Shown piece after piece: positions 11,511 to 31,619 of a DNA stretch of 64,000 nt (the first letter of the stretch is position 1; each line of letters starts with the position of its first letter). This DNA comes from Planctomycetota bacterium (GTDB lineage: Bacteria > Planctomycetota > DG-23 > JAZDKG01): the NCBI GenBank assembly GCA_043803205.1, contig JAZDKG010000070.1:1725-65724 (forward strand), read 5' to 3'. The position numbers and the translations under genes are program-made. Below the pieces are notes generated by a model that worked only from the letters and a program-made list of their open reading frames with translations, was not told the DNA's origin and did no database searches.

Positions 11511-11550
11511 CGCATTTGCGGCGGGACGGCGTTTGCCTTATCATGTCACG

Positions 11551-12369: not shown

Positions 12370-13566
12370 ATGCACATTCTCTACCTCACGAGCGACAGGA
12401 TTCCGGCGGGCGACGGCTCGAGCGCGCGGACGCTGGAGATCGCGGGGAACCTCGTCCGGCTGGGACACCAGGTGGACCTCGTGATCGACGCCGGAGCGTC
12501 GCAGCCGATCAAGGAGGTGATCTCCGGGGTCAAGGTGCGGCGGGTCAAGCAGACGGTGCTCGGCCGCTCGATCCCGATCTTGGCGTCGCGGAAACTGCTC
12601 TCCTTCCTGCAGCGCGACTACGACGTGGTGCTGGAACGGTTCTCGACGTTCGGGGGTACTGGGACGCTCGTGAGCCTGGTGAAGGACATCCCGTGCGTGC
12701 TCGAGGTGAATGCGCCGCACGCCGAGGAGCTGATCTGGCGCCGGCGTCTGCGCAACCCCGTCAAGACGGCGCTGCGGAGCTTGGGGCGCCTCCAGTTCCG
12801 GCTCAGCGCGATGATTTTAGCGCCCCGGCCATCGATCATTCCGTCGCTGTCCCAAGGGAAGACGCGGGAGACCGCGTGGGGCGTCAACACCGACCTTTTC
12901 AACACGGAGCTGGCGACGTCGAAGCGGGTGCAGAACCTGCGATGGACCTACGACCTCGAGGGGCGGACGGTGGTCGTCTTTTGCGGTAGCTTCGAAAGCC
13001 GTCAGAGCGTGGGGCGGCTCGCCGAGATCGCCGACCGCGTGACGCACGAGGATGCGAACGTCCGCTTTCTTCTCGTCGGAGAAGGCCCGACGAGCAACGA
13101 GCTCAGGAAAGAGATCGCGTTCCGGCGGATCGCGGACCGCGTCTTCTTCGCGGGCCGGCAGGCGTACCACGAGATCCCCTACTTCTTAGCCTGCGGGCAC
13201 GTGGGGATTGCGCCCTACGGCGTAGAGGACGACGAGCTTTGCAGGCGGTTCGGCTTCTACGGGATCCCGGCCAAGGTGTTCGAGTACATGGCCGCCGGCC
13301 TCCCGGTGGTCACCTTCGACTACGACGCGCTGCGGCGGATCCTGGGCAAGGACGAGTGCGGGGTCCTCGCCGCGCCCGGGGACATCGCGGGTATCACGGA
13401 GGGCGTCCTCGGGCTGTGCCGGGACGCAGCCCGCCGGAGCGCTCTGGGACGCAACGCCCGCAAGCGGGCGCAGGAGCTCTATGCGTGGCCCTCGCAGGTC
13501 CAGCGCCTGACGCAACTCCTGGAGGGGATGCTGGCGAAGAGCCCGGCCCGCCGGAGACTGTTCTAG
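12370..13566 (+). CDS. glycosyltransferase family 4
   Basis: 398 aa. ...FCGSFESRQSVGRL... and FEYMAAGLPVVTFDYDALRRILG motif. Confidence 0.7.
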   Translation: MHILYLTSDRIPAGDGSSARTLEIAGNLVRLGHQVDLVIDAGASQPIKEVISGVKVRRVKQTVLGRSIPILASRKLLSFLQRDYDVVLERFSTFGGTGTLVSLVKDIPCVLEVNAPHAEELIWRRRLRNPVKTALRSLGRLQFRLSAMILAPRPSIIPSLSQGKTRETAWGVNTDLFNTELATSKRVQNLRWTYDLEGRTVVVFCGSFESRQSVGRLAEIADRVTHEDANVRFLLVGEGPTSNELRKEIAFRRIADRVFFAGRQAYHEIPYFLACGHVGIAPYGVEDDELCRRFGFYGIPAKVFEYMAAGLPVVTFDYDALRRILGKDECGVLAAPGDIAGITEGVLGLCRDAARRSALGRNARKRAQELYAWPSQVQRLTQLLEGMLAKSPARRRLF

Positions 13567-17622: not shown

Positions 17623-18525
17623 TCAGGTCCTGGTGATCTTAAGACTGGGTTCCTTCGGGACGTGCGAACGCACGAAGTCCTTGGTGACTCGATTGAGGGG
17701 AGGAAGGAACTCTATCTGTTCCCCCGTCGCGGTTTTGATCTTTCGCGCCAGCCGGAGATGGTAGAAGGGCTCCAAGGCCTCTTCGAGCTCGATCAGGCGC
17801 ACGCCGACGCGTCTTGCGAGCGAGGGCGGGCTCTCGATGAGGCCCGAGTTCGCCCGGTAGAGGGTCAGGAGGGTCTTCCTCACGGGGCTGGAGATGAGGT
17901 CGTTGAGCCCCTGCGCAGCGACCTTCTTGCCGGTTTCAATCAACTTCGTCGCGGAGGACTCCACGAGGACGCAGATGTTGTTTCCGGCGTCCGAGGGCAC
18001 GAGCCAGAACCTCGCCAGTCCGGGATGATAGGTTCCGCCGGGATGGCCATGAAGGACCTCGCCGTCGCGGAAGTACACCGTAAGCTCAAGCCTGCCGTGG
18101 CCGGCGCTGGCGACCGCGGACCGCTCCGCGGCGGAGGGACGCCTGTCGGGAGGCGGAGAGAACTCGCGCACGTGACAGACGAGCTTCACATCGGAGAACG
18201 CCACGAGGACGCGCTCGGCGGCGCCGACTTGCGCGAGCGGTACGATGTAGAAGCTCTCCGCGTGCGGATCGAGCTTGTAGCTCGTCCCTTTCAGGATCCT
18301 GCCGTCTTTGAAGTGCACGACGAGCTTGAGGTGCATCGACTTCTGCGTGCGGACGTCTTCCGCGGGTTGCGTGACCTGCATCTTCAAGGTCCGGATGCAG
18401 CCGAGGCAGTAGAGGTTCCCGTCGATGCACTTAAGGAGGCAGCGCGAGCAGCCGAAGCAGCCGCAACGGGTACAATACCCGATAGCCTGCAACTGGGCGT
18501 GTTGGTGGCACTTTTGAACCGCCAC
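17623..18525 (-). CDS. hypothetical protein: N-terminal Cys-rich zinc-ribbon/B-box-like module plus two tandem ~65-aa repeats
   Basis: 300 aa. CHQHAQLQAIGYCTRCGCFGCSRCLLKCIDGNLYCLGCI. Repeats HLKLVVHFKDGRILKGTSYKLDPHAESFYIVPL and LELTVYFRDGEVLHGHPGGTYHPGLARFWLVPS. Confidence 0.5.
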   Translation of the reverse strand: MAVQKCHQHAQLQAIGYCTRCGCFGCSRCLLKCIDGNLYCLGCIRTLKMQVTQPAEDVRTQKSMHLKLVVHFKDGRILKGTSYKLDPHAESFYIVPLAQVGAAERVLVAFSDVKLVCHVREFSPPPDRRPSAAERSAVASAGHGRLELTVYFRDGEVLHGHPGGTYHPGLARFWLVPSDAGNNICVLVESSATKLIETGKKVAAQGLNDLISSPVRKTLLTLYRANSGLIESPPSLARRVGVRLIELEEALEPFYHLRLARKIKTATGEQIEFLPPLNRVTKDFVRSHVPKEPSLKITRT

Positions 18526-18742: not shown

Positions 18743-19819
18743 ATGCATCAAGTGACCCTCATTCCGGGCGACGGAACCGGTCCGGAAATAGCTGAGGCGG
18801 CGCGGATGCTTGTCGAGGCCGCGGGCGTCGCCGTGAACTGGGACGTCCAGTCCGCGGGCTTGGCCACGATGGAGACGGAGGGCACGCCCCTGCCCGACAG
18901 GGTCCTCGACTCGATCCGTCGGACGGGCGTCGCGCTCAAGGCCCCCATCACCACCCCGGTCGGAACGGGGTTTCGCTCCGTCAACGTTGCGCTCCGGCAG
19001 ACGCTGGACCTTTACGCGTGCCTGCGCCCGTGCAAGGTGTACAAGGGCGTGCGGTCGCGATACGAGAACGTAGATCTCGTCGTGGTCCGCGAGAACACCG
19101 AGGATCTCTACGCTGGGATCGAGTTCGCGCGGGGGGCGGACTCCACGCGGAAGCTCTTGGCTGCGCTCGAGGAGCTCCAGAGCAAGGTGATCCGGGAGGA
19201 CTCCGCCGTCAGCATCAAGCCGATCAGCGAGTACGCGTCCCGGCGGATTGTCACGTTCGCCTTCGAGTACGCGCGCTCCGCTAAACGCCGAAAGGTCACC
19301 GCCGTTCACAAAGCCAACATCATGAAATACAGCGACGGCCTGTTTCTGGAGACCGCCCGCGCGGTGGCCTCGAGCTACGGCGACGTCGAGTTCGAGGATC
19401 GCATCGTGGACAACATGTGCATGCAGCTCGTGCAGCGGCCCGAGGCGTACGACGTCCTCGTCATGCCCAACCTTTATGGCGACATCGTCTCGGACCTGTG
19501 CGCGGGGCTGGTCGGCGGCCTGGGGGTTGCGCCGGGGGCGAACATCGGAGACCGCTGCGCCGTCTTCGAGGCGACGCACGGCAGCGCGCCGAAATACACG
19601 GGCCTCAACAAGGTGAACCCGACGGCCCTCGTGCTGTCGGCGGCGCTGATGCTGCGACACATCGGCGAGAAGGACGCCGCCAACCGCTTGGAGGCCGCCG
19701 TCGCCGAGGTCATCGCCGAAGGCAAGCACGTAACGTACGATCTCAAGGCAAACCGCGACGATGCTTGCGCCGTGGGAACCCGGGAGATGGCCCAAGCCAT
19801 CGCGCGGCGGCTTCGCTGA
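18743..19819 (+). CDS. isocitrate/homoisocitrate dehydrogenase family (NAD(P)-dependent beta-decarboxylating dehydrogenase)
   Basis: 358 aa. [13 protein letters not shown]...[14 protein letters not shown]...[19 protein letters not shown]. Confidence 0.75.
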
Positions 19820-20954
19820 ACAAAGGCACTTCCAGCACGGTACGGAGCGCAAAGCGTTGCGGGGACTTTCGAGCGGACGCGCTTTCTATCTCGACGCCAT
19901 CGCGGGCAAGCGCACCGACGGCGCGGCGCGCGCGCTCATGTCCTTCCTGGTTCCGCTTTCGCGGATCTACGAGGCGGCGATCCGCCGGCGGAACCTCTCC
20001 TTCGACCGCGGACGGGCCGTTGCATCCCTGGAGATCCCGGTCCTCTCCATCGGCAACATTACCGTGGGAGGAACGGGCAAGACGGTCCTGATCGAGGACC
20101 TAGCCCGCAGGTTGCTCAGACTGGGACTGCGACCTCTCATCGTGAGCCGGGGCTACAAGGGAGATTCGGGCGGGAACGACGAGTTTCAACTCCTCGCGGA
20201 AAACCTGCCCCACGTCCCGCACGTCACGGGGAAGAAGCGCATCAAGGCGGCACACGAGGGGATCACGGCCCACCGGCCGGACGTCATTATCCTTGACGAC
20301 GCCTTCAGCCATCGGGGGCTCGCGCGCGACCTCGACATCGTGACGATCGATGCGCTGTGCCCGTTCGGTTACGGGGCGCTTCTGCCGAGGGGCCTGCTTC
20401 GCGAACCGCCGGAGGAGCTAGCGCGCGCGGACCTCGTCGTCCTCACGCGCAGCGACCTCATCCGAGAGGAGGATCGTCAGGCAATCGAAACGGACCTCGC
20501 CAGGCTTTCCGGGAAGGCCGCCGTCATCGAGGCCTTCCATGATCCATGGCGCGCGGTTGACATTATGAACTCGCGCGAGGTAGATCACCGAACTCTCGCA
20601 GGGACACCGAGTTACGTGTTCTGCGCAATCGGGAACCCCCAGGGCTTCAAGCTCACTGTCGCAAAGCTGTCCATCCCCGTCGTCGGGGAGACCTATTTTA
20701 TTGACCATCATCGGTACACGCCCGGGGACCTGCGGGCGATCGAAGTCGAGGCGTGCGCGCGAGGCGCGCGGTGCTTGCTGGTCACCCAAAAAGACAGGGT
20801 GAAACTCACGCGCATCGGATATAATTGGCGACTGCCGATTCGCAGCATCGACGTCCGTATGGCGTACCTTTCAGGCGAGGAGATCCTGGAGGAACGGATC
20901 GCCGGCGCCGTGGCGCGCGGGGGGCGCCGGGCGCAGCCAGCGCGCCATCCCTGA
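19761..20954 (+). CDS. lpxK: tetraacyldisaccharide 4'-kinase LpxK
   Basis: [15 protein letters not shown]...[26 protein letters not shown]...IVSRGYKG. Start uncertain: ATG 19761 overlaps icd by 59 nt. Alternatives are TTG 19857 or ATG 19938. Confidence 0.7.
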
Positions 20955-20967
20955 GGAGCACCCCGAC

Positions 20968-22464
20968 TTGACCAGTCGTTCCCATCTGCGACAGATGATC
21001 GAGAAGCTCGGCAAGCCCACCGTGCTCGTGATCGGCGACTTCATCCTGGACCGTTACATCTGGGGACGGGTGGACCGGATCAGCCCCGAGGCCCCCATCC
21101 CCGTCCTTGCTGCCGAGACCGAAGAAGAGCGCCCGGGGGGTGTCGGGAGCGTCCTCAACAACTTGGCGGCGCTGGGCGCGAAGTGCAGGGCGATCGGTGT
21201 CGTCGGGGATGACGAGGAAGGCCGACGGTTCCATGGTCTGCTCGACGCGGCGGGGCTGTCGGGCGCATGCGGGACCGTGTTCACGGACCCGCGCCGGCGT
21301 ACCACCGTGAAGACGCGCCTCATCGCGAAGGTCCAGCACCTCCTGCGCGTGGATCAGGAACACACCCATCCCCTCGACGGCGAGCTCGAGCAGGCGCTCA
21401 TCGCCCGGGCCCTAGCGCACATGGACGACAGCGACATCATCCTTGTGAGCGACTATGGGAAGGGGGTCGTCTCGGCGGCGGTCATGGAAGCCGTCGTGTC
21501 GAGCGCCCGACGGCGCGGTCTCAGGGTGATCGTAGACCCCTGGCGGGGACGCGACTACGCCCATTACCGGCGCGCCACCGCGGTCACTCCGAACCGCAAC
21601 GAGACCCAGATCGCGACGGGCATCCGTCTCGAGGCGACCGATGCTTACGAGAAGGCCGCCCGCAGGCTCATCCGCGAATACGAGCTCGATGCCGTCGTGA
21701 TCACCCTTGACAGGGACGGGATCTACTGCGCCGAAGGGTCTTCGCCGGGGCGGCTCATCCCCACGCGGCCGCGCGCCATCTTCGACGTCACCGGCGCTGG
21801 CGACATCGTGCTGAGCGTTCTCGGGGTGGGACTGGCGAGCGGGCTGGATCTAGAGAGCGCGGCGGAGCTGGCGAACCTAGCGGCCGGGGTGGAGGTCGAG
21901 AAACTGGGGGCGGCCCCCGTCTCGATCTGTGAGATGCTCAACGCCGTCTCGGATTCGCCGCACCACGCCAGGGCGAAGGTCGTGAGCGAAGAGGAACTCC
22001 TGTCCAAGCTCGCGGAGCACCGTCGCCGCGGAGAACGGATCGTGCTGGCAAACGGGTGTTTCGACCTGCTGCACGCGGGGCACGCGGAGTTTCTAGCGTT
22101 CGCCCGCCGGCAGGGGGACACACTCGTCGTGGCGCTCAACTCCGATTCCTCGGTGGCGGGCCTCAAGGGGCCCGACAGGCCCTTTCAATCCCAGTCCGAA
22201 CGGGCTAGAATACTTGCGGCATTGGGCGACGTGAATTACGTGGTCGTCTTTGACGAGCCGACCCCGGAGCGGATCGTGCGCAGCGTGAGGCCCGATGTCC
22301 TGGTCAAGGGCGAGGACTGGCGCGAGCGCGGCGTGGTCGGAAGGGAGTTCGTGGAGAGCTACGGCGGGACGGTGGTGCTGGCGCCTCTGGTCGAGGGCGT
22401 GTCGACCACGCAGATCGTGTCCAGCATCCGGCAGGGAGGCGGCGGCGTCCGGGAAAGAACATGA
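20968..22464 (+). CDS. hldE: bifunctional D-beta-D-heptose 7-phosphate kinase / D-beta-D-heptose 1-phosphate adenylyltransferase HldE (RfaE)
   Basis: 498 aa. N-terminal pfkB kinase (LVIGDFILDRYIWGRVDRISPEAPIPVL, GAGD). C-terminal cytidylyltransferase (IVLANGCFDLLHAGHAEFL). Confidence 0.85.
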   Translation: MTSRSHLRQMIEKLGKPTVLVIGDFILDRYIWGRVDRISPEAPIPVLAAETEEERPGGVGSVLNNLAALGAKCRAIGVVGDDEEGRRFHGLLDAAGLSGACGTVFTDPRRRTTVKTRLIAKVQHLLRVDQEHTHPLDGELEQALIARALAHMDDSDIILVSDYGKGVVSAAVMEAVVSSARRRGLRVIVDPWRGRDYAHYRRATAVTPNRNETQIATGIRLEATDAYEKAARRLIREYELDAVVITLDRDGIYCAEGSSPGRLIPTRPRAIFDVTGAGDIVLSVLGVGLASGLDLESAAELANLAAGVEVEKLGAAPVSICEMLNAVSDSPHHARAKVVSEEELLSKLAEHRRRGERIVLANGCFDLLHAGHAEFLAFARRQGDTLVVALNSDSSVAGLKGPDRPFQSQSERARILAALGDVNYVVVFDEPTPERIVRSVRPDVLVKGEDWRERGVVGREFVESYGGTVVLAPLVEGVSTTQIVSSIRQGGGGVRERT

Positions 22465-23075
22465 GCGAGGAACGAATCCAAGCCATCGTGAACGAAGCGG
22501 TCGAAGTCCTTCGCGCGATCGACGCCGCGCAGGTGAAGGCGATCCGCTCGGCCGCGGACGCGATAGTCAAGGCGCTGCGAAGGGACCGTCGGGTCTACAT
22601 CCTGGGGAACGGCGGAAGCGCCGCCGACGCGCAGCACTTCGCAGCCGAGCTCGTTGGAAGGTTCCGCATGGACCGCAAGGCTCTACCCGTGACGGCGCTG
22701 ACCACGGACACGTCGATCCTGACGTCGATCGGCAACGACTACGGGTACCAGTGCATCTTCAGCAAGCAGGTGGAGGGTTTCGTGCACCGGGGGGACGTGG
22801 TGGTGTGCATCTCGACGAGCGGGAACTCGCCTAACGTTGTGGCGGCCATGATGATCGCCCGGGAGCTGGGGGCGACGACGATCGGGCTCGCGGGCCACGA
22901 CGGCGGAAAGATGAAGAGCTTGTGCGACGTCTTGGTGAGCGTTCCCGCGGAATCGACCGCGCGGGCGCAGGAGGCGCACGGCGTCGTCATCCATGCGATC
23001 TGCGAACTCGTCGAGGGCGAGATCTTCTCCCCCCAGCGGAGGGGGAAAACGGGCAAGGCTTCCAACGGCCGGTAG
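22461..23075 (+). CDS. gmhA: phosphoheptose isomerase GmhA (SIS domain)
   Basis: 204 aa. YILGNGGSAADAQHFAAELVGRF...CISTSGNSPNVV. ATGA overlap with hldE. Confidence 0.85.
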   Translation: MSEERIQAIVNEAVEVLRAIDAAQVKAIRSAADAIVKALRRDRRVYILGNGGSAADAQHFAAELVGRFRMDRKALPVTALTTDTSILTSIGNDYGYQCIFSKQVEGFVHRGDVVVCISTSGNSPNVVAAMMIARELGATTIGLAGHDGGKMKSLCDVLVSVPAESTARAQEAHGVVIHAICELVEGEIFSPQRRGKTGKASNGR

Positions 23076-23136
23076 AGATCCAGCGTCCGCCGCCAAAAGC
23101 GAGAACGTTCGCGCGCCCGCGCGCGGCCCTACACGC

Positions 23137-24645
23137 ATGAAAGTACTTTTCGTCTATCCAAACCGGGACTGCCAGATCGGCTTCAACTACGGCCTAGCGT
23201 TCCTGAGCGCGGTGCTCAAGGAGGCGGGACACGAGACGCGGCTTCTCAACCTCAACGAGAAGCTCGCGACGCTTCCGACCTTGGAGGAGATAGGACGGGC
23301 GGTGCGCGACTACGCGCCGGACCTTGTCGGGATGAGCGTCGTGACGAACCAGTGGCGCTACGCCCTCGAGGTGGCGCAAGCCGTCCGGAAGGTCACCGAC
23401 GCGCCCCTCGTATGCGGCGGCATCCACGCGACCATGTCGGCGGAGGAGATCCTGGAAGGGACCCCATTCGACTACGCCGTCGTCGGCGAGGGGGAAGGGG
23501 CCATCCTTGACCTCGTGCGCGCGATTGATCGGAACGCCGACGTCTCGAGGATCTCGAACCTCGCCTGCCGCATTGACGGGAAGGTGCAGGTGAACGCCGT
23601 CCGCCCGCTCGTGAACCTATCGACACTCCCTAGAAAGGACTACGGGCTCTTCGACTTCCAGCGCATGATCGACGCCAAGGACGGATGGGTCGGGATCATG
23701 GCCGGGCGGGGGTGCCCGTTCCGCTGCACATACTGCTTCAACCATGCGATCGTGGAACGCTACAGCCGGGACACAGGTCTCTCCCCCGCCGCGCTCCACT
23801 ACGTCCGCTGGCACCCCGTCGAGGAGGTCATCGAGGAGATCCTGTGGCTCCAGAAGACCTACCGGCGGATTCGCATGATCATCTTCGACGACGACCTCTT
23901 CACCCTCGACCGCGAGTACCTAGCGGAGTTCACGAAGCAGTACCGCGCGCGCGTGCGGCTCCCCTTCGTGGCGAACGCCCACGTGAAACACTTCGACCGC
24001 GACATAGCGCGCATGTTCAAGGACGCCGGCTGCGCTATCGTCAAGTTCGGGGTGGAGTCGGGGAGCGACCGGATCCGGCGGGACATCATGCACCGGAGGA
24101 TGTCCAACGGGGAGATCGAGCGCGCTTTCGAGGCGGCACACGAGGCGGGGCTGCACACCTCGGCGTTCGTCATGCTCGGATTACCGCACGAGGGACGCGA
24201 GGAAATCGAGGAGACGGTCCGCCTGCTGGGACGCATCGGCCCCGGACGGTTCCGCTGGGCAATCTTCTTTCCCTTTCCGGGGACGCGCGCCTTCGAGATC
24301 GCGCGCGAGGGCGGTTTCATCGACGAGGCGAAGCTGCCGACGCTGTCGAACTTCTTCGAGGATTCGGCGCTCGACTTCGGGCCCGAGCACAACCTCTTCA
24401 TCCGGAAGCTCCGTCGGGCGCTGCCTTGGTACGTCAACGCGGCGTGCGACCGCGAAGGCGCCGACTACTACCACAAGCTCGTGCGCCTTGTGGAGCGCTG
24501 GGACGAGAGCGCATGGGAGCGGCTCTCCCCACGGATGATCGAGTTCGACCGGAACGTCTCCGCGCACGCGGAGCGCAAAGGCTGGCGACACTACCTGGTG
24601 CGCTTCAACGATTTCATGGCGGTGGACAGCGCGTGGAAGGAATGA
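23137..24645 (+). CDS. B12-binding-domain radical SAM enzyme (class B rSAM)
   Basis: N-terminal MKVLFVYPNRD...GHETRLLNL B12/Rossmann-like domain. GRGCPFRCTYCFN CX3CX2C cluster motif. Start reset from 22993 to ATG 23137. Confidence 0.75.
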   Translation: MKVLFVYPNRDCQIGFNYGLAFLSAVLKEAGHETRLLNLNEKLATLPTLEEIGRAVRDYAPDLVGMSVVTNQWRYALEVAQAVRKVTDAPLVCGGIHATMSAEEILEGTPFDYAVVGEGEGAILDLVRAIDRNADVSRISNLACRIDGKVQVNAVRPLVNLSTLPRKDYGLFDFQRMIDAKDGWVGIMAGRGCPFRCTYCFNHAIVERYSRDTGLSPAALHYVRWHPVEEVIEEILWLQKTYRRIRMIIFDDDLFTLDREYLAEFTKQYRARVRLPFVANAHVKHFDRDIARMFKDAGCAIVKFGVESGSDRIRRDIMHRRMSNGEIERAFEAAHEAGLHTSAFVMLGLPHEGREEIEETVRLLGRIGPGRFRWAIFFPFPGTRAFEIAREGGFIDEAKLPTLSNFFEDSALDFGPEHNLFIRKLRRALPWYVNAACDREGADYYHKLVRLVERWDESAWERLSPRMIEFDRNVSAHAERKGWRHYLVRFNDFMAVDSAWKE

Positions 24646-25700
24646 TCGGCCCCATCCGGACGATCCTCATCCGCTCTCCCAACTGGGTGGGCGATTGCGT
24701 CATGGCGACTCCGGCGCTGGCGGCCTTCCGAGACGCCTTCCGGGACGCGACGATCCTGCTCTTGGCCCCGTCCTATACGGCCGAGGTGTTCGAAGGGGGC
24801 GACTGGTTCGACGAGCTCCTGGTTGTGCCAGGGAGTCGAAGCCTCGGGGCTTTTTTGCGCGCGGTGCAGACCGCAGCGGCCCTTCGCCGCCGACGGGCGG
24901 ACCTCGGCATCCTCATGACGAACTCCCTGGGAAGCGCGGTCCTCATGAAGCTCGCCGGGGCGCGCAACATCGTGGGGTACTCCCGCAACGGTCGGTCCGC
25001 GCTCCTCACCACGGCTCTAGCACCCGCGCGCACGCTCGGGGGATTCGTCCCCGGTCCCATGGTTGATTATTACCTGGAACTCGCCCGGGCCGTCCGTCGT
25101 AGGACTGACGGGACGGAGGATCGGAGAATCCGCCTTGCCACGACGCCCCGAGAAGAGGAGGCGGCTCGCACGCTCTGGGAGCGACTGGGTCTGGGATCGA
25201 GACGAGTGGCGGGGCTCAACCCCGGGGCGGCCTTCGGCAGCGCGAAATGCTGGCCTCCCGCGCACTTCGCCGCTCTCGGGCGGATGCTGGCGGAGCGATC
25301 GGGGCTCGACGTCCTCGTCCTCTGCGGACCGGCCGAGCGGAGCGTCGCCCGCGCGATCATAACCGAGGCCGGGCACCCGGCAGTGAGGGGTCTCGAAGGG
25401 GAAGACGTCCCCCTGGGGGTCCTAAAGGCCGTGGTGCGGCGGCTCGCGCTGCTCGTGACGAACGATTCAGGCCCGCGTCACTTCGCGTGCGCCTTCGCGG
25501 TCCCGACCGTCACGGTTTTCGGTCCGACCGACGAACGGTGGAGCGAGACGGCCCGAACGGACGAAATAAAGATCGTGCGCGACCTCGCGTGCAGGCCCTG
25601 CATGAGACGCGTTTGTCCCACCGACCACGCCTGCATGCGCTCCATCGAACCGGAGGCGGTCTACGAGGCCGCTACGGAACTTCTCAAGGGACACAGATGA
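24642..25700 (+). CDS. glycosyltransferase family 9 (heptosyltransferase, WaaF/WaaC-like)
   Basis: MIGPIRTILIRSPNWVGDCVMATPAL... and TNDSGPRHFACAFAVPTVTVFGPTDERW. ATGA overlap with the rSAM gene. Confidence 0.75.
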   Translation: MIGPIRTILIRSPNWVGDCVMATPALAAFRDAFRDATILLLAPSYTAEVFEGGDWFDELLVVPGSRSLGAFLRAVQTAAALRRRRADLGILMTNSLGSAVLMKLAGARNIVGYSRNGRSALLTTALAPARTLGGFVPGPMVDYYLELARAVRRRTDGTEDRRIRLATTPREEEAARTLWERLGLGSRRVAGLNPGAAFGSAKCWPPAHFAALGRMLAERSGLDVLVLCGPAERSVARAIITEAGHPAVRGLEGEDVPLGVLKAVVRRLALLVTNDSGPRHFACAFAVPTVTVFGPTDERWSETARTDEIKIVRDLACRPCMRRVCPTDHACMRSIEPEAVYEAATELLKGHR

Positions 25701-26707
25701 ACGAAGGACTCAAGCGCGTCGTCCGGCGATTCCCAAAGGCCCGCATCGCTGTCGTGGGCGACTTCGTCGCGGACCTGTATGTGCACACCCGTCCCCGCCG
25801 CTTGAGCCGCGAGGCCCCCGTCATCATCTGCGAGTATGAGGGCGAGGAGATGGTCGCCGGGAGCGCCGGGAACACGGCGGCGAACGCGCTGGCGCTCGGC
25901 GCCGGCGTGCGCTGCATCGGGATCATCGGCGACGACGCGGAAGGACGGGGGCTGGCACGCCTGTTGAGGAGAGAGGGCGCCGACACCCGGGGGCTCCTAC
26001 GCGCCCGTAACCGTCCAACTACCACGAAGACGCGCATCCTGGCCGGCGACCTGCACACGATCAAGCAGCAGGTCATCCGGATCGACCGCCACAGCGTGCG
26101 CGGGGCGACGGCCGCGCAGGAACGCACGCTCACGCGTGCGCTGGCGAGAAGCGTGCCGCGCGTCCAAGCCGTCATCGCCAGCGACTATGACGACAGCACC
26201 CTCACGCCCGAGGTGATCTCCGTCCTGTGCGCGCACGCGGCGCGCCTCCCCCTCGTCGTGGACAGTCGCGCTCGACTGCGGCAGTTCGCAAACGCCTTTG
26301 TCGCGACTCCCAACGAGACGGAGGCGCTCGAGCTCACCGGCATGATCCCGCGGACGCGGGGAACGGCGCGCGACCTTGCGCGCCTCGGGGAGCGCCTGCG
26401 GGGCGCGCTCCGGGCCCGGCACATCCTGCTTACGCGGGGAAACCAGGGCATGGTCCTCTACGAGCAAGGCCGCGCCCCCTACATCATCCCGATCGTGGGG
26501 AGCACGGACATCGTGGACGTGACCGGGGCGGGGGACACTGTGGCGGCGGCGTTGACGCTGGCGATCGTAAGCGGGGCGTCGATGCGTCAAGCCGCATGGA
26601 TCGCGAACTGCGCGGCGGGGGTGACCGTGATGAAGCCCGGCGCCGCCGCCCTCACGCGGCGGGAGCTTCTTGACGCGATCGAGAGCGCCGGCCCCATAAG
26701 GACGTGA
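25697..26707 (+). CDS. pfkB-family sugar kinase, RfaE domain-I / HldA-like (heptose 7-phosphate kinase paralog)
   Basis: [26 protein letters not shown]...[13 protein letters not shown] overlap with the GT9 gene. Confidence 0.7.
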
Positions 26708-26711
26708 CGAC

Positions 26712-27236
26712 ATGGCGCGCTTCGTCCGCTCGCACGCGGGTCTTCGTCGGATCCTGGACCGCCACCGCCGGAACGGCGAACGGATCGTGATGGCGAACGG
26801 CTGCTTCGAGCTCCTTCACGTGGGACACATCCGCTACCTCGAGGCGGCGTCGCGCCTCGGCGACATCCTCGTCGTGGCGGTGAACACCGATGCGAGCGTG
26901 CGTCAGCTCAAGGGGAGGGGTCGTCCGCTCGTGGACCTGGCGGAGCGCGTGGAGACGCTCCGGGCTCTGCGCTGCGTGGACTACGTCACGGCGTTCGGCG
27001 GGAAGACGTGCGACGCGCTCTTGAGCACGATCCGGCCCGACGTGCACGCCAAGGGAACCGACTACGCGACCGACACTGTTCCGGAGCGCAAGACCGTGCG
27101 CGCGTACGGCGGCAAGACCGTCATCGTCGGCGATCCCAAGCGGCACTCCGTGACGGACTTGATCCGGAGGATCGGGTCGCTCGGCGTCGAGGCGCGCGGC
27201 CGCCCCGTTAAGCGTCGCCCCCGAAGGAAGGCATGA
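26712..27236 (+). CDS. cytidylyltransferase-like, RfaE domain-II / HldC-like (heptose 1-phosphate adenylyltransferase paralog)
   Basis: [19 protein letters not shown] (HxGH)...VAVNTDASV...CVDYV, 174 aa. Confidence 0.75.
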
Positions 27237-29725
27237 AGACCACCAAGATCATCTTCAATGGCCGCACCGAGGGCCTCTTCCGCGGCGCTGGTCTCTCGAC
27301 CGCCGAGGATTTTTTACGCTCGCCCATGGAACGAGTGACCGCGCGCTCCATCGAGTGGACCACGGGCGACCTCACGCCGGCGGGGATGTCCGCAACGTTC
27401 GTCCTCAAGACATTCTTCCCCGTGCGTCCCTGGCGGATGGGCGGGAGGGACCGCTGTCCCTGCCTTCGGGAGTACGCCAACCTGCTCTATCTCCTCGAGG
27501 CGGGCGTCGGCGTCCCCGAGCCAGCGGTCGCCGGCCACGAGGTCGAGGATGGAAGACTCGTCGGCTCCTTCCTCGTGACCGAGAAGCTCTACGACGCATC
27601 GCCCTGGCCCGTGCCTTTCCGGAGCCGCACGGAGCGACTCGACGCGCTGCGCGTCCTGGGCCTCACCATAAAGAGGATGCACGAGGCGCGCTTTCATCAC
27701 GGGGACGCCCTCTTCTGCAATATCCTGTGGCGCGTCCCGCAGACGCGGGACGGACCGTCGTGCTTCATCACGAACTGTCCCCGCGGCAAGTCCATCCGAA
27801 GGGACCTCAGCGAAGGGGAGCGCGCGGACGACCTGGGGGCGCTCCTGGTCGATGCGGGGCGGGCGCTTACGCGGACGGAATGCCTGAGGATCCTTCTCCA
27901 CTACCGGGGCGAGGGCGGGCTCGACGCGGCGTTTGCGAAGAAGGCGCTTGCGGCCCGTCGCGCGCGCATCCTCCGTCGGGCGCGGGTGTTCCTACGCGCC
28001 GACGCCCTCCCGGGGATGCCCATGTCGTTTCAGGCGCCGCCCGACACGCTTGTCTCCTTCGACGACGCGATCCTTCACGAGCTCAACGTCCGCAAGCTGG
28101 CGGATTTTGAAACGCTGCGCCGCCCGCCCGGACGGGAGGTCGTGTCGGGGCGAAGACCCGTCTACCGCCTGGAGGGGCGACCGGGCAAGGAGGACCTCTT
28201 CGTCAAGGTGATCGGCGCGCATGCGCTCAAGGAGAAGCTCGCGGCGTTTTTGCCGACGCTCGCATCCCGCACGCGGGCGCTCAACGAGTGGTTCGCCCTT
28301 CACGCAGCCTTAGGCGCGGGGCTTCGTGTGCCGCGACCCCTGGGGATCGTGCAGCGTCGTTCCAGGGAAGCGCCCATCGAATCGATCCTTGTCACCGCCG
28401 CCCTGCCGGAACGCGCCCGTCGGCTCGATCTCTTCCTCGACTCGCTTGGCGACGGGCGGGGGGCAGACCTTGCATCTCTCTGGCGGGCCATCGCCGTAGC
28501 CGTCGGGAGGCTCCATGCCGCCGGTCTCGTCCACAACGAGCTCTTTGCCAAGCACATCTTCGTCAGCGCCGCGCCGGACGCGCGTCCTCCCTTCCGTTGG
28601 GAGGTTCACTTCCTCGACCTCCAGAACGCGCGCGTGCGACGCGCGACGGCACTGCGAGCGCGGGCGCGGGACCTGGCGGCGCTGCGTGCGAGCGTGCCGC
28701 CCTTTATTCTTCCGACGACGGGCTGGAACGAGTTCCTGCGCTCCTACGTCGCGTCCTGCCCGCCGGATGTACGCTATCCCGCGCTCCGCAGAGCCGTGGG
28801 GAGCGCCCAACGGAAGCTCGGAGCCAACCGTCGGGTCACGCGGATGCTCTACGAATGGGCCGATCCCGCGACTGCGGGACCGCAGGCGCGACTTCCTCTC
28901 CGGGAGAGCATCATCCAGGTCTCCGAGAGCCTGCGCGAGCGGCTGCTCGTCCACGCGGATTATGCCCAAGCCTTAGCGGACGCGGGCCTGGCAACTACGC
29001 TGGATTTCCTCTACTGCGAGGGGTCGGCCATCCGCGCCAAGGAGAGCCGGTCGATCTCGCGGCTCACCCTCAAGACGGGGGAGCGATCGGTTCCGCTGTA
29101 TCTGAAGCGTCACGAGGGCCAGACCCTCGGGCAGGTCCTCGCCGAACTCCTGCGCACCGGCCGGATCGAAAGCCCGGGGCTCCACGAAGCGGCCAACATT
29201 CAGCTCCTGCGCTCGCGGGGGATTGCCGCCCCTATCGTGGTCGCGGCGGGAGAGGAGCTTAAGCCCTTCTGGACGAGGCGGTCGTTTCTTCTCACGGCGG
29301 CGCTGGAGGGCGCACGCCCCCTCGACGATTTCTTTCGGGAGAAGAGCGCGCAGGCGCCACGTCTCAAGACGAAGATCATCGACCATCTTGCGCGTTTAGC
29401 GCGGCACCTTCACGCGTCGGGGTTCCACCATCAGGACTTCTACCTCAACCACGTTTTCATCCGCCCGGACGAGAAGCCGGAGCTCATCCTCATCGATCTT
29501 CAGCGCATGTACCGCCGACGGCGGCTCCGGCGGCGGTGGATCATCAAGGACCTCGGGCAGCTCAACTACTCCGCGGACCGGGCAGAGCTTAGCCGCGCCG
29601 ACCGCCTGCGGTTTTTCAAGACGTACCTCAACGCAAGCTACCTTTCCCGCGCGGACAAGCGGTTTCTTACGCGCATCCTTCGCAAGACATCCCGCATCAT
29701 CCACCATACCGGCTTCGGACAATGA
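27233..29725 (+). CDS. triple-domain lipopolysaccharide-kinase-like protein (three tandem WaaP/Kdo-kinase-family domains with variant catalytic loops)
   Basis: 830 aa. Domain 1 has FVLKTF lysine and [12 protein letters not shown] loop. Domain 2 has LFVKVIG and [12 protein letters not shown] (Asp to Asn). Domain 3 has LYLKRHEG and [12 protein letters not shown], with ILIDLQ. ATGA overlap with the upstream gene. Confidence 0.65.
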
Positions 29726-29758: not shown

Positions 29759-30934
29759 ATGAAGCTCGCTTTCCTCATCGAACACTTCGATCCTTCGCGG
29801 GGCGGGGCGGAGACGTACGTCGCCCAGTTTGCGGACGGATGCGCCAGGCGCGGCCACGAGGTGCACATCGTCGCGCGCTCGGGCGATGCGGGGGCGCTGC
29901 CGGCCGGCGTGACGCTCCACCGCATCCCGGCGGCGAGCCTTCTCCCGTGGCGGAAGTTCGACCGGAACGCGAACGAGGTTATGCAGGAGCTGGGGGCGGA
30001 CATCGTGCTCGGGACCGGAAAGACCACCTGCCAGGACGTCCTCCAGCCCCATGGCGGCGTGTATCGCGCGTCGCTGCGTCAGAACGGGGCCTTAGCCACG
30101 GGGACGGCGACCGGACTCCTGCGCGACGCCTGCGAGCTCTTCTCCTGGAAGCGACGATGCTACCTCTCAATCGAGAAGCAGCAGTATGCGTCGAGCGACA
30201 CAGAGTTCATCGCGGTCTCACGGATGGTCAAGTCCGACATGATGCGCTACTACGCCGTTCCAGAGGAGAGAATCCACGTCATCTACAACGGCGTAGACAC
30301 GACCCGTTTCCGTCCCGAGAACGCGGGGGTCTACCGCGAGGAGACGCGGGCGGCGCTGGGAGCGGGCCCAGGCGACCTCGTCGCCCTCCTCGTCGCACAC
30401 AATTCTCGACTCAAGGGCGTGCGATGTTTGCTGCAGGCCGTCGCGGCATTGGCAGACAAGGTCCCCGCGCGGGCCGTCATCGTGGGGAAGGGGAAAGCAA
30501 AACCCTATCAACGTCTAGCGCAAGCTCTCGGGATCGCGGAGCGGGTTCGCTTCGAGCCGTCCACGGCGCGACCCGAAGAGTACTATGCCGCGGCGGACAT
30601 CTACTGCCATCCCACGTGGTATGATCCGTGCTCCCTTGTCGTCCTGGAAGCCCTTGCGTCGGGGCTGCCCGTCATCACGACACGCTGGAACGGCGCAGGC
30701 GAGCTCATCACGAGCGGTCGCGAGGGCTACGTTATGTCCGACCCATCGGACCACGAGGAGCTAGCGCGCTTGATCCGACTCCTCGCCGAAGAGCCGGCGC
30801 GGCGAGCGGCCGGCGCAGCCGCCCGCGCGCTCGCGCTAGAGCACACGCTTGAGAGAAACCATCGCGAGATGATCGAGATCCTGGAACGGGCCGGTGAAAA
30901 GGCTCGCAGGAAATCCCCGAACGCGATACCATAG
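29759..30934 (+). CDS. glycosyltransferase family 4
   Basis: MKLAFLIEHFDPSRGGAETYV...; C-terminal LVVLEALASGLPVITTRWNGAGELI. Confidence 0.7.
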   Translation: MKLAFLIEHFDPSRGGAETYVAQFADGCARRGHEVHIVARSGDAGALPAGVTLHRIPAASLLPWRKFDRNANEVMQELGADIVLGTGKTTCQDVLQPHGGVYRASLRQNGALATGTATGLLRDACELFSWKRRCYLSIEKQQYASSDTEFIAVSRMVKSDMMRYYAVPEERIHVIYNGVDTTRFRPENAGVYREETRAALGAGPGDLVALLVAHNSRLKGVRCLLQAVAALADKVPARAVIVGKGKAKPYQRLAQALGIAERVRFEPSTARPEEYYAAADIYCHPTWYDPCSLVVLEALASGLPVITTRWNGAGELITSGREGYVMSDPSDHEELARLIRLLAEEPARRAAGAAARALALEHTLERNHREMIEILERAGEKARRKSPNAIP

Positions 30935-30965
30935 CGCCGACAGCTCTTTCCCCGGAGGCCTTCCG

Positions 30966-31619
30966 TTGTCGGCGACACTCTACACCGCCATCTGCATGAT
31001 TGTCTCCTACCTCTGCGGGGCGATCCCGTTCGGCCACCTCGCAGGCAGGGTCTTCGCCGGCATCGACATACGGGAACAGGGGAGCCGGAACCCGGGCGCC
31101 ACAAACGTATTGCGCGTTGTCGGCCTGGGGCCTGGGCTTCTGGTACTCGCACTCGACGCGCTCAAAGGCTTCATCCCGGTGATATTGTCGCGAGTATTCG
31201 CGGACACGATCGGGGACGGGACGGGGACGGAGCTTGTGATGGTCCTGTCGGCGGCGGCCGCCATCTTCGGACACATGTTCTCCATCTTTCTCTTAGGCCG
31301 GGGCGGAAAGGGCGTCGCAACGGCGGCGGGCGCGTGCCTAGCGATCATCCCCGCCGAGACGGCCATCGCGCTGACGGTGTGGGGGGGAACCGTCGTCGCG
31401 TCCCGGTACGTCTCCCTGGGGTCGATGTGCGCCGCGGTCGCACTGGGCGTGTCGCTCTTTTTCCTGGAACGGGACCTCTTCAGCACACGACTCCCCCTGC
31501 TCGTTTTTGTGCTCGTCCTCTGCGCCCTCGTGATCGTGCGCCACCGCGCGAACATTCGCAGGCTTCTCAAGGGCGAGGAGAACCGCCTGTCGTTCTCATC
31601 CCGGAAAGGCTCCCCATGA
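30966..31619 (+). CDS. plsY: glycerol-3-phosphate acyltransferase PlsY (acyl-phosphate dependent)
   Basis: SATLYTAICMIVSYLCGAIPFGHL...SRNPGATNVLRVVG matches PlsY N-termini. TTG start at 30966 with GGAGG 9 nt upstream. Track ORF starts at ATG 30894, overlapping the GT4 gene. Confidence 0.7.
   Translation: MSATLYTAICMIVSYLCGAIPFGHLAGRVFAGIDIREQGSRNPGATNVLRVVGLGPGLLVLALDALKGFIPVILSRVFADTIGDGTGTELVMVLSAAAAIFGHMFSIFLLGRGGKGVATAAGACLAIIPAETAIALTVWGGTVVASRYVSLGSMCAAVALGVSLFFLERDLFSTRLPLLVFVLVLCALVIVRHRANIRRLLKGEENRLSFSSRKGSP

What the first reader, a model, noticed from the sequence alone, without database searches (positions are those of the whole stretch)
23137..24645. B12-binding radical-SAM enzyme embedded, with 4-nt overlaps, inside the ADP-heptose operon (gmhA - rSAM - GT9 - hldA - hldC)
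The gene begins 62 nt after the gmhA stop. Its stop is fused ATGA-wise to a GT9 heptosyltransferase, which in turn overlaps a heptose kinase. Class-B (cobalamin) radical-SAM enzymes typically perform C-methylation or other radical chemistry on unactivated carbons, including sugar C-methylations in antibiotic pathways. I am not aware of such an enzyme being part of the canonical ADP-heptose or LPS inner-core pathway. Its position suggests a radical modification, such as C-methylation or epimerisation, of a heptose or core sugar.
Basis: partly seen in the sequence, partly recalled or inferred. Interest (0 to 1): 0.68.

Follow-up and report, generated by a model that had tools for sequence, protein, structure and literature searches.

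The report
Radical-SAM enzyme in LPS heptose operon
A well-conserved but uncharacterised B12-type radical-SAM enzyme sits directly in front of a heptosyltransferase gene in the LPS inner-core operons of many, mostly anaerobic and uncultured, bacteria, which points to a so far undescribed radical step in building the LPS core.

Summary
Window 23137-24645 (+) encodes a 502-aa protein with a B12-binding domain, a radical-SAM core (C193-x3-C197-x2-C200) and a family-specific C-terminal domain. It lies 61 nt after gmhA and shares ATGA overlaps within a GT9 - heptose kinase - adenylyltransferase - Kdo/WaaP kinase string.

It reaches no curated family cut-off (BchE, HpnJ, HpnR, ladderane rSAM, AprD4, PhpK and others all fail). 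It belongs to a tight orthologous group (49-63% identity) found in Planctomycetota/anammox bacteria, Thermodesulfobacteriota, Nitrospinae, Poribacteria and Abyssobacteria.

In 80 species-representative genomes, a GT9 gene lies immediately downstream in 58, immediately upstream in 2 and within 6 kb in 11. Only 6 loci with enough flank lack one. No hopanoid genes appear. More distant relatives sit in other glycan loci or are fused to glycosyl- or methyltransferases.

The same operon also exists without the rSAM, so it is an accessory tailoring step, not a core pathway enzyme.

The most likely role is a cobalamin-dependent radical modification, C-methylation first, of an inner-core heptose or its ADP-activated precursor, coupled to the adjacent GT9. 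The chemistry is inferred, not shown. I found no publication describing it.

The parts
19761..20954 (+). lpxK (tetraacyldisaccharide 4'-kinase), first LPS gene of the co-directional string; exact start codon not verified
   Evidence: Pfam LpxK 232.6 bits; TIGR00682 159 bits against a cut-off of 92. The same gene sits upstream in L173, L011, L030 and L033.
20968..22464 (+). Fused hldE (heptose-7-P kinase plus heptose-1-P adenylyltransferase); its stop overlaps the gmhA start (ATGA)
   Evidence: PfkB plus CTP_transf_like domains; PRK11316 HldE 452.6 bits, below its 521 cut-off. Overlap read.
22461..23075 (+). gmhA (sedoheptulose-7-P isomerase)
   Evidence: SIS_2 109.7 bits; PRK13936 214 bits and TIGR00441 187.6 bits.
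23076..23136 (+). 61-nt intergenic spacer between gmhA and the rSAM gene; no + strand terminator or promoter match
   Evidence: Sequence. The only terminator-like match here is on the minus strand, and the site count across 18-32 kb is no higher than in shuffles. No Rfam hit.
23137..24645 (+). The focal gene: a 502-aa B12-binding-domain radical-SAM protein, founding a GT9-linked orthologous group
23182..23514 (+). N-terminal Rossmann-type B12-binding domain (aa 16-126; GGxHxT at G94-T99, GEGE at G117-E120)
   Evidence: PF02310 73.4 bits. The family profile aligns this region to the cobalamin domains of TsrM, OxsB, TokK and CysS. Invariant columns.
23713..23736 (+). CxxxCxxC motif (C193, C197, C200) for the radical-SAM [4Fe-4S] cluster
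   Evidence: Codons read. All three Cys are invariant in 24 sequences.
23704..24228 (+). Radical-SAM partial TIM-barrel core (aa 190-364)
   Evidence: PF04055 87.3 bits. AlphaFold2 model with pLDDT 93.3. Foldseek matches to class-B rSAM structures.
24334..24642 (+). Family-specific, mostly helical C-terminal domain (aa ~400-502; invariant F406, L412, F414, N419, W431, V433, N434, D471, H485, Y486); presumed substrate-binding
   Evidence: Alignment A1. Helices 416-481 in the model. This domain is shared only with full-length cousins; most relatives align over aa 1-400 only.
24642..25700 (+). GT9 heptosyltransferase (WaaF-like), translationally coupled to the rSAM gene; the conserved partner
   Evidence: PF01075 111.7 bits; TIGR02195 148 bits against a cut-off of 134.6. 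Directly adjacent to the rSAM in 60/77 informative species loci.
25697..26707 (+). Second, stand-alone heptose-7-P kinase-like PfkB protein (hldA-like)
   Evidence: PfkB 113.5 bits; TIGR02198 265.8 bits, below its 345 cut-off. Follows the GT9 in about 23 rSAM loci.
26712..27236 (+). Second, stand-alone heptose-1-P adenylyltransferase-like protein (hldC-like)
   Evidence: CTP_transf_like 68 bits; TIGR02199 170 bits, below its 181.5 cut-off.
27233..29725 (+). 830-aa protein with three Kdo/WaaP-type LPS core kinase stretches
   Evidence: PF06293 215 bits in 3 stretches; RfaP PRK15123 174 bits against a cut-off of 170.
29759..30934 (+). GT4 glycosyltransferase, last core-glycan gene of the string before plsY
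   Evidence: Glycos_transf_1 and Glyco_transf_4. plsY (G3P_acyltransf) at 30894-31619.

Best explanation
The gene encodes a cytoplasmic, cobalamin-type (class B) radical-SAM enzyme that tailors a sugar of the LPS inner core. It works together with the GT9 heptosyltransferase to which it is translationally coupled.

Proposed mechanism (inferred):
- The [4Fe-4S] cluster on C193/C197/C200 reductively cleaves SAM to a 5'-deoxyadenosyl radical.
- That radical abstracts a hydrogen from an unactivated carbon of a glycero-manno-heptose. The substrate is either the ADP-activated or phosphorylated precursor made by the neighbouring GmhA/HldE (or HldA/HldC) enzymes, or the heptose just installed on Kdo-lipid A.
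- The substrate radical is then quenched by methyl transfer from methylcobalamin held in the N-terminal domain, giving a C-methyl heptose (for example a 6-C- or 7-C-methyl heptose), as GenK and Fom3 do on hydroxylated carbons.
- The GT9 installs or extends this sugar.

The step is optional: it decorates the core and is not needed to build it.

What is shown: domain content, fold, family boundaries, conserved synteny with GT9 and LPS genes, and accessory status. What is inferred: sugar substrate, heptose identity, cobalamin use and methylation.

My split of confidence:
- About 0.65 that it modifies an LPS-core sugar or its precursor in concert with the GT9.
- About 0.35 that the reaction is C-methylation.
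- About 0.3 that it is another radical reaction on the same sugars (diol dehydration, epimerisation, or oxidation/cyclisation).
For: Domains and fold.
- B12-binding plus Radical_SAM domains are above Pfam cut-offs, and the CxxxCxxC motif is invariant.
- The model is high-confidence (pLDDT 93.3, pTM 0.90). It matches class-B rSAM structures: TsrM, MgmA, AprD4, CysS, OxsB and TokK, with E 1e-16 to 1e-22 and TM 0.62-0.67.
- The N-terminal domain aligns by sequence to the true cobalamin binders TsrM, OxsB, TokK and CysS. The cobalamin-free AprD4 matches only the core, aa 219-399.

Synteny.
- In 80 species representatives, a GT9 lies immediately downstream on the same strand in 58, immediately upstream in 2 and within 6 kb in 11. 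It is absent despite sufficient flank in only 6.
- hld or gmhA genes lie within 3 kb in 35 of the 80.
- Further neighbours are LpxK, LpxL-type acyltransferase, GmhB-like phosphatase, Kdo/WaaP kinases, KdsA/KdsB, and GT2/GT4 enzymes.
- The operon is tightly packed with ATGA overlaps and shows no terminator excess.

Conservation. The orthologous group is very tight: it forms a single 50%-identity cluster, after which scores drop from 619 to 439 bits. It keeps 49-56% identity across phyla, which is more conserved than the partner GT9 at 34-47%.

Relatives are glycan-linked.
- P0122 (46% identity) follows a fused hldE.
- P0130 (34%) lies between Wza, an NDP-sugar pyrophosphorylase, an SDR epimerase/dehydratase, the priming transferase and Wzz.
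- Core-only relatives are fused to a glycosyltransferase-like domain or to SAM methyltransferase and APH kinase domains.

Accessory status. The same operon occurs without the rSAM in L098 and L099.

Chemistry prior. Cobalamin-dependent rSAM enzymes are predominantly methylases (abstract of PMC13142503, seen).
Against: - There is no direct evidence for substrate, product or cobalamin binding.
- No curated methylase family is matched. The best profile scores are tied between a methylase (ApyD, 128.8 bits) and a non-methylating cyclase (BchE, 128.5 bits).
- The best solved-structure sequence match to the catalytic core is the diol dehydratase AprD4.
- Six loci, including one Kuenenia MAG, have no GT9 nearby.
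- Nucleotide-sugar profiling of Kuenenia reported ADP- and GDP-heptose but no modified ADP-heptose. However, in the one Kuenenia MAG examined the gene is not GT9-linked, and those surveys were not designed to detect such a sugar.
- No C-methyl heptose is known to me from any LPS core (own knowledge).
- Synteny cannot tell whether the enzyme acts before or after glycosyl transfer.
Confidence: 0.5

Rival explanations
1. A non-methylating radical enzyme acts on the exocyclic glycero side chain of heptose (or of Kdo). One option is an AprD4-like 1,2-diol dehydratase that removes a hydroxyl from the C6-C7 (Kdo: C7-C8) vicinal diol, giving a deoxy-keto sugar. Another is a BchE/HpnJ/OxsB-like oxidation or ring rearrangement.
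For: - AprD4 is the best solved-structure sequence match to the catalytic core: 87.5 bits over aa 219-399. It also has the highest TM-scores, TMq 0.67 and TMt 0.74.
- BchE ties for the best NCBIfam hit.
- Several cobalamin-type rSAMs are not methylases (abstracts of PMC13142503 and PMC13598231). HpnJ is proposed to rearrange a glucosamine ring (PMC13459092).
- In L063 and L065-L067 the rSAM is next to a Zn-dependent alcohol dehydrogenase and aldolases. This could be the reductase partner that AprD4 has in AprD3 (own knowledge).
Against: - All these similarities are at superfamily level: 73 bits against a 500 cut-off for the AprD4 family, and 128 against 481 for BchE.
- Unlike AprD4, the N-terminal domain resembles genuine cobalamin-binding domains.
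- No reductase or dehydrogenase is conserved next to the gene in most loci.
Confidence: 0.25
2. A non-orthologous replacement of HldD. The rSAM would epimerise C6 of ADP-D-glycero-D-manno-heptose by hydrogen abstraction and re-donation, completing the ADP-L,D-heptose pathway just before the WaaF-like transferase.
For: - In Brocadiia-type loci the order is hldE-gmhA-gmhB-rSAM-GT9. The rSAM therefore occupies the slot of the one missing pathway enzyme, much like hldD-waaF-waaC in E. coli (own knowledge).
- No bona fide HldD lies within 10 kb of any of the 80 rSAM loci or in the 64-kb window. The nearby SDRs are GalE-like.
- HldD is adjacent to hldE in about 17 of 80 rSAM-less metagenome loci.
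- C299 is an invariant non-cluster cysteine that could serve as a hydrogen donor.
Against: - The closest rSAM-less operons (L098, L099) have neither HldD nor any other gene in that slot.
- HldD adjacency is seen mainly in lineages more distant from the window, so the exclusivity is confounded by phylogeny.
- Known rSAM epimerases do not use a B12 domain, and HldD needs no oxygen, so anaerobes have no obvious reason to replace it (own knowledge).
- Whole genomes could not be searched for HldD.
Confidence: 0.1
3. The enzyme acts on the lipid A/Kdo acceptor rather than on heptose. It could be an anaerobic, oxygen-independent counterpart of the KdoO or LpxO hydroxylases, or a methylase or cross-linker of lipid A acyl chains, preparing the acceptor for the GT9.
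For: - The taxa are predominantly anaerobes.
- BchE, which performs oxygen-independent oxidation, is a top profile hit.
- lpxK and lpxL-type acyltransferase genes recur upstream.
- A ladderane-lipid B12 rSAM model is among the better hits at 110 bits.
Against: - The tight, often overlapping, pairing is with a GT9 gene, not with lpx genes.
- Relatives sit in NDP-sugar and polysaccharide loci or are fused to glycosyltransferase domains.
- The score is far below the lipid-family cut-off, 110 against 360.
- A 2026 review of lipid-modifying rSAMs lists nothing for LPS.
Confidence: 0.1
4. The gene has no role in LPS. It would be a housekeeping or unrelated rSAM that merely travels with the GT9 gene.
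For: Six loci lack a nearby GT9, and in a Kuenenia MAG the neighbours are cytochrome-like genes. One cousin lies on a phage- or plasmid-like contig.
Against: Adjacency is kept in 60/77 loci across at least five phylum-level groups despite otherwise shuffled neighbourhoods, with translational coupling. That pattern is hard to maintain without a functional link.
Confidence: 0.05

Closest known systems
GenK / Fom3-type cobalamin-dependent radical-SAM C-methyltransferases (class B rSAM acting on sugars or nucleotide-linked substrates)
   Same: Same architecture of an N-terminal B12 domain followed by a CxxxCxxC radical-SAM core. Same fold class as the solved methylases TokK, CysS, TsrM and MgmA. 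From my own knowledge, GenK methylates a hydroxylated sugar carbon and Fom3 a cytidylylated substrate. That is the analogy for ADP-heptose made by an adjacent nucleotidyltransferase.
   Different: There is no family-level sequence relationship: no methylase model comes near its cut-off. The C-terminal domain is different. The setting is primary cell-envelope (LPS core) biosynthesis rather than antibiotic pathways. Methylation is not demonstrated.
AprD4 (radical-SAM 1,2-diol dehydratase of apramycin biosynthesis, PDB 6FD2)
   Same: It is the best solved-structure sequence match to the catalytic core (87.5 bits) and has the highest TM-scores. It acts on an aminosugar diol, and heptose and Kdo offer a comparable vicinal diol.
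   Different: The score is 73 bits against a 500 cut-off for the AprD4 family. The AprD4 N-terminal domain is not matched by the family profile, whereas true cobalamin domains are. No conserved partner reductase is present.
BchE / HpnJ / HpnR / ladderane-cluster B12 rSAMs (COG1032 'BchE-like' group)
   Same: These are among the better-scoring curated models, except HpnR: BchE 128, ladderane 110, HpnJ 107, HpnR 52 bits. They share the GGxHxT and GEGE motifs of the N-terminal domain. HpnJ is thought to remodel a sugar (glucosamine) head group.
   Different: All scores are 3- to 12-fold below the equivalog cut-offs. No bacteriochlorophyll, hopanoid or ladderane/FAS genes occur in any of the loci examined.
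Canonical ADP-L-glycero-beta-D-manno-heptose / inner-core pathway (GmhA, HldE or HldA+HldC, GmhB, HldD; WaaC/WaaF GT9 transferases)
   Same: The gene is embedded among bona fide homologues of GmhA, HldE, HldA/HldC, GmhB (in relatives) and a WaaF-like GT9.
   Different: No radical-SAM step belongs to this pathway as curated (NCBIfam) or in the literature searched. The operon functions without the gene in relatives. HldD was not found near any rSAM locus.

Membership tests
Radical SAM superfamily | CxxxCxxC motif for the [4Fe-4S] cluster and a partial TIM-barrel core recognised by PF04055 | tested here: met
   C193/C197/C200 are invariant. PF04055 scores 87.3 bits against a cut-off of 29.5. The fold matches radical-SAM structures.
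Class B (cobalamin-binding-domain) radical SAM enzymes | N-terminal Rossmann-type B12-binding domain preceding the radical-SAM core | tested here: met
   PF02310 scores 73.4 bits against a cut-off of 32.1, aa 16-126. The family profile aligns this domain to TsrM, OxsB, TokK and CysS. The top Foldseek hits are all class-B enzymes.
Class B (cobalamin-binding-domain) radical SAM enzymes | Actual binding and catalytic use of cobalamin | not testable with these tools
   There is no DxHxxG motif, which is typical of base-off/His-off class B enzymes but also of the cobalamin-free AprD4. This needs cofactor analysis of purified protein.
HpnJ / HpnR (hopanoid rSAMs) | Score above the equivalog cut-off, and linkage to hopanoid (hpn/shc) genes | tested here: not met
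   HpnJ scores 107.4 against 577.6 and HpnR 52.2 against 650. No hopanoid genes were identified in the window's LPS region or among the recurrent neighbours in the 80+ loci examined.
BchE (anaerobic Mg-protoporphyrin cyclase) | Score above the TIGR02026 cut-off, and a bacteriochlorophyll gene context | tested here: not met
   128.5 bits against a cut-off of 481. The context is LPS, not photosynthesis.
Ladderane-cluster B12 rSAM (TIGR04072) | Score above the cut-off, and linkage to anammox FAS/ladderane genes | tested here: not met
   110.2 bits against a cut-off of 360. The family also occurs in non-anammox phyla, and its neighbours are LPS genes.
AprD4-family radical-SAM diol dehydratase | Score above the NF033070 cut-off | tested here: not met
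   73 bits against a cut-off of 500. Only the core region aligns to 6FD2.
Known B12-rSAM methylase families (PhpK, TsrM-type Trp methylase, MgmA/MJ0865, RiPP C-methylases, KedN5, ApyD) | Score above the respective NCBIfam cut-off | tested here: not met
   ApyD scores 128.8 against 750, PhpK 79.6 against 600, MJ_0865 63.5 against 360, Trp methylase 45 against 500 and KedN5 41 against 700.
Canonical ADP-heptose pathway enzymes (GmhA, HldE, GmhB, HldD) | Homology to one of the four enzyme families | tested here: not met
   The protein has only B12-binding and rSAM domains. It is unrelated to the SIS, PfkB, cytidylyltransferase, HAD or SDR folds of those enzymes.
GT9-linked rSAM orthologous group (defined here) | About 500 aa; at least ~49% identity over the full length including the C-terminal domain; adjacent GT9 gene | tested here: met
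   63% identity to P0002 with an identical operon. 49-56% identity to 80 species representatives. Forms a single 50% cluster. The GT9 overlaps its stop codon.

The most novel reading that the evidence does not exclude
rSAM-GT9-HldA-HldC is a self-contained, horizontally spread four-gene module that makes and installs a previously unknown inner-core sugar. The rSAM converts a glycero-manno-heptose phosphate or ADP-heptose into a C-methylated heptose (formally a deoxy-octose) or a deoxy-heptose. The dedicated second kinase/adenylyltransferase pair activates it, which would explain why operons such as this one carry both a fused hldE and a split hldA/hldC. The coupled GT9 then transfers it to the core. 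This would be the first radical-SAM and first cobalamin-dependent step in LPS core biosynthesis, and a new higher-sugar chemotype typical of anaerobic sediment and anammox bacteria.
Probability: 0.25. Interest if true: 0.8.

Novelty: new variant of a known kind. Interest (0 to 1): 0.62.

Why it matters
LPS inner-core biosynthesis is regarded as a closed, well-understood pathway built from nucleotide-sugar and glycosyltransferase chemistry. A conserved radical-SAM step would add a new type of reaction, and probably a new sugar, to it.

The lineages concerned are anammox Planctomycetota, sulfate-reducing and syntrophic Thermodesulfobacteriota, Nitrospinae and Abyssobacteria. Their envelopes are almost unstudied chemically.

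The family is abundant in metagenomes: the two homologue searches scored 3361 (E <= 1e-10) and 1723 (E <= 1e-50) proteins, and there were 513 relatives among species representatives. It is tightly conserved and has no curated name, so assigning it a function would annotate many genes at once.

It would also widen the known substrate range of cobalamin-type radical-SAM enzymes from antibiotics, cofactors and lipids to primary cell-envelope glycans. Finally, it could yield a chemical biomarker, a modified heptose, for anaerobic sediment communities.

Tried and rejected
- Exact-sequence look-up of the window protein (P0001) for gene calls: not on record. I annotated the window by ORF/GC3 analysis and Pfam/NCBIfam instead.
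- A second homologue search from a Desulfobacterales orthologue returned only MAGs and an Olavius symbiont. No cultured isolate was identified. Anammox enrichments (Kuenenia, Scalindua, Brocadia) are the only handle.
- Testing HldD absence: whole genomes cannot be searched with these tools. The neighbourhood test is confounded by phylogeny, so the HldD-replacement idea is neither confirmed nor excluded.
It behaved as expected, giving 32-55% full-length hits beside hldE in other lineages, but it is not a verified sequence.
- Literature: six full-text searches and one review check found no description of a radical-SAM enzyme in heptose or LPS-core loci.
- Regulatory RNA, riboswitch, promoter and terminator scans gave nothing.
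- Ladderane, hopanoid and bacteriochlorophyll assignments were considered because of the anammox hosts and JGI's 'anaerobic Mg-protoporphyrin cyclase' labels. I rejected them on scores and context.
- My greedy ORF caller mis-called some high-GC loci, including the window itself. The adjacency statistics therefore rest on tblastn.
Full report
**Observation**

The ORF at 23137-24645 (+) is real and its boundaries are as reported.
- The 23137 ATG is supported by the N-termini of 23 homologues. GC3 is 0.86, typical of genes in this 65.7% GC window.
- gmhA ends at 23075, leaving a 61-nt spacer.
- ATGA overlaps join rSAM/GT9 (24642-24645), GT9/kinase (25697-25700), hldC/Kdo-kinase (27233-27236) and, upstream, hldE/gmhA (22461-22464). 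The kinase and hldC are 4 nt apart.
- Pfam finds B12-binding (73 bits, aa 16-126) and Radical_SAM (87 bits, aa 190-364). The cluster motif is C193-x3-C197-x2-C200.
- The co-directional string is lpxK - hldE (fused) - gmhA - rSAM - GT9 (TIGR02195 heptosyltransferase II, 148 bits against 134.6) - hldA-like - hldC-like - 830-aa triple Kdo/WaaP kinase - GT4 - plsY.
- No Rfam hit and no excess of terminator- or promoter-like sites interrupts the string.
- The window matches a Planctomycetota MAG protein at 100% identity (P0001).

**What the protein is**

No NCBIfam equivalog is reached. Scores against cut-offs are ApyD 129/750, BchE 128/481, ladderane rSAM 110/360, HpnJ 107/578, PhpK 80/600, AprD4 73/500 and HpnR 52/650.

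An AlphaFold2 model built on 24 homologues is confident (pLDDT 93.3, pTM 0.90). Foldseek places it among class-B radical-SAM structures with no clear favourite: TsrM, MgmA, AprD4, CysS, OxsB and TokK, all at TM 0.62-0.67.

A profile of the family aligns its N-terminal domain to the cobalamin domains of TsrM, OxsB, TokK and CysS. The cobalamin-free AprD4 matches only the catalytic core. I read this as mild support for genuine cobalamin binding.

The C-terminal ~100 residues are a family-specific helical domain with invariant aromatic, Asn and His residues.

**Family and distribution**

An exhaustive search of 1.84 billion cluster representatives gives 3848 relatives at E <= 1e-30. The orthologues collapse into one 50%-identity cluster (619 bits), followed by a drop to 439 bits.

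Orthologues keep 49-63% identity over the full length. They occur in:
- Planctomycetota (Brocadiales, Scalindua, Kuenenia, Anammoxibacter)
- Thermodesulfobacteriota (Syntrophobacterales, Desulfobacterales, Syntrophales, Desulfatiglandaceae)
- Nitrospinae
- Poribacteria
- Abyssobacteria

Nearly all are MAGs and most are anaerobes.

**Genomic context**

I first examined five loci found by exact-protein look-up. I then examined 80 species-representative loci with 10-kb flanks, scored by tblastn with the window's own proteins.

| GT9 position relative to the rSAM | Loci (of 80) |
|---|---|
| Within 400 nt downstream, same strand | 58 |
| Directly upstream | 2 |
| Within 6 kb | 11 |
| None, despite at least 1.1 kb of downstream flank | 6 |
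| None, downstream flank shorter than 1.1 kb | 3 |

- hld or gmhA genes lie within 3 kb in 35 of the 80.
- Clustering of all neighbours adds a GmhB-like phosphatase directly upstream in Brocadiia-type loci (hldE-gmhA-gmhB-rSAM-GT9). It also adds LpxK, an LpxL-type acyltransferase, Kdo/WaaP kinases, GT2/GT4 enzymes, and a second, longer GT9-like protein in Desulfobacterales and Scalindua.
- No hopanoid, chlorophyll or ladderane genes occur.
- The closest relative (63% identity) has the same operon gene for gene.

**Wider clade**

- The full-length cousin P0122 (46% identity) follows a fused hldE.
- P0123 (39%) follows an HldC-like nucleotidyltransferase.
- P0130 (34%) lies in a Wza - B12-rSAM - NDP-sugar pyrophosphorylase - SDR - B12-rSAM - priming transferase - Wzz cluster.
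- Core-only relatives are fused to SAM methyltransferase, APH-kinase or glycosyltransferase-like domains.

The clade as a whole is glycan-associated, which supports a sugar substrate.

**Accessory nature**

A reciprocal scan anchored on HldE recovered 80 metagenome loci at 35-51% identity to the window's HldE. None carries the rSAM.

Two of these are as close to the window as the rSAM-bearing loci are:
- L099: lpxK-hldE-gmhA-gmhB-GT9-Kdo kinase-GT4
- L098: gmhA-hldE-GT9-Kdo kinase-GT4

They have the same operon without the rSAM and without hldA/hldC. The GT9 therefore does not depend on the rSAM. The rSAM, often together with hldA/hldC, looks like an inserted tailoring module.

**Mechanism**

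*Shown.* This is a class-B-type radical-SAM enzyme that is cytoplasmic by composition. It is translationally coupled to a WaaF-like GT9 inside an LPS core operon, and the coupling is conserved across phyla.

*Inferred.* It abstracts a hydrogen from an inner-core sugar or its activated precursor and most probably methylates it via methylcobalamin. Methylation is the predominant reaction of this subclass (abstract of PMC13142503). By analogy, from my own knowledge, GenK methylates a hydroxylated sugar carbon and Fom3 a nucleotide-linked substrate.

*Alternatives that fit equally well structurally.*
- AprD4-like dehydration of the C6-C7 (or Kdo C7-C8) diol.
- BchE/HpnJ-like oxidation or rearrangement.
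- C6 epimerisation replacing HldD.

The HldD idea is attractive on position. The rSAM sits where hldD sits in E. coli hldD-waaF-waaC (own knowledge), and no bona fide HldD lies within 10 kb of any rSAM locus. It is weakened because rSAM-less sister operons also lack HldD there. It cannot be settled without whole genomes.

**Comparison with what is known, and novelty**

Six literature searches, and a 2026 review of lipid-modifying radical-SAM enzymes, contain nothing on a radical-SAM enzyme in heptose or LPS-core biosynthesis.

Metabolomic work on Kuenenia reports ADP- and GDP-heptose only.

The enzyme class is known. The family, its conserved partnership with GT9, and a radical step in LPS core assembly are not. 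I therefore rate it a new variant of a known kind, with interest 0.62.

The most novel reading still open is a self-contained module that makes and installs a new C-methyl or deoxy heptose. I give it about 0.25 probability.

Noticed in passing
window 20968-22464 and 25697-27236: The operon carries two heptose kinase/adenylyltransferase sets: a fused hldE upstream of gmhA, and a split hldA-like plus hldC-like pair downstream of the GT9. The split pair is closer to the split pairs of other rSAM loci (41-59% identity) than to the hldE domains (30-42%). It is absent from the rSAM-less sister operons L098 and L099.
   Followed up: partly
window 27233-29725: An 830-aa protein has three tandem Kdo/WaaP-type LPS kinase stretches (PF06293 x3; RfaP model 174 bits against a cut-off of 170). 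Relatives have one to three such domains (499-851 aa).
   Followed up: no
L090 7001-8533 (contig ctg96159l, 90.5 kb): A full-length cousin of the rSAM (P0129, 37% identity) lies on a contig dominated by small unannotated ORFs plus DnaB helicase, primase-like, RNase HII, dCMP deaminase and IstB-like genes. The contig looks like a phage or other mobile element.
   Followed up: no
L099 1295-8442; L098 28-5596: Metagenome contigs carry the same lpxK-hldE-gmhA-(gmhB)-GT9-Kdo kinase-GT4 operon as the window but without the rSAM and without hldA/hldC. In L099 the GmhB-like ORF is 311 aa, so it has an extra C-terminal ~150 aa.
   Followed up: partly
L053 8447-9934, and equivalents in L006, L007, L010, L034, L035, L071, L074, L076-L078, L081, L082, L084: A second, ~500-aa GT9-like protein with a ~150-aa N-terminal extension of unknown function lies next to the rSAM in Desulfobacterales-type loci and close by, usually just beyond the partner GT9, in Scalindua-type loci. 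Only a short C-terminal stretch matches PF01075.
   Followed up: partly
L084 (three copies) and L035 (two copies): Several paralogous copies of the B12-rSAM occur within one 20-kb locus.
   Followed up: no
L063, L065, L066, L067: In these Planctomycetota-type loci the rSAM is flanked by a Zn-dependent alcohol dehydrogenase, a DeoC/LacD-type aldolase and a class-II (fuculose-phosphate-type) aldolase, with the GT9 4-5 kb away. This suggests a linked sugar-phosphate branch.
   Followed up: partly
P0183, P0168, P0231, P0244 (proteins): Multidomain relatives exist: B12-rSAM fused to a class-I SAM methyltransferase; to a methyltransferase plus an APH-type kinase; and a 1467-aa protein with two B12-rSAM modules and a glycosyltransferase-like domain.
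   Followed up: partly
window 9762-11510 (+) and 31334-33097 (+): Two long ORFs (582 and 587 aa) with coding-like GC3 flank the glycosyltransferase-rich region and have no Pfam match at E <= 1e-3.
   Followed up: no
window 8551-13566 and 33121-34623: Further glycosyltransferase genes (two GT4-like at 8551-9585 and 12370-13566, GT2 at 11371-12294, and GT2 at 33121-34623 on the minus strand) surround the operon. mutS (14693-17290), a DUF6982 gene (minus strand, 17623-18525) and an isocitrate/isopropylmalate dehydrogenase-family gene (18743-19819) lie between them and lpxK. rpoA is at 35602-36642 on the minus strand.
   Followed up: partly
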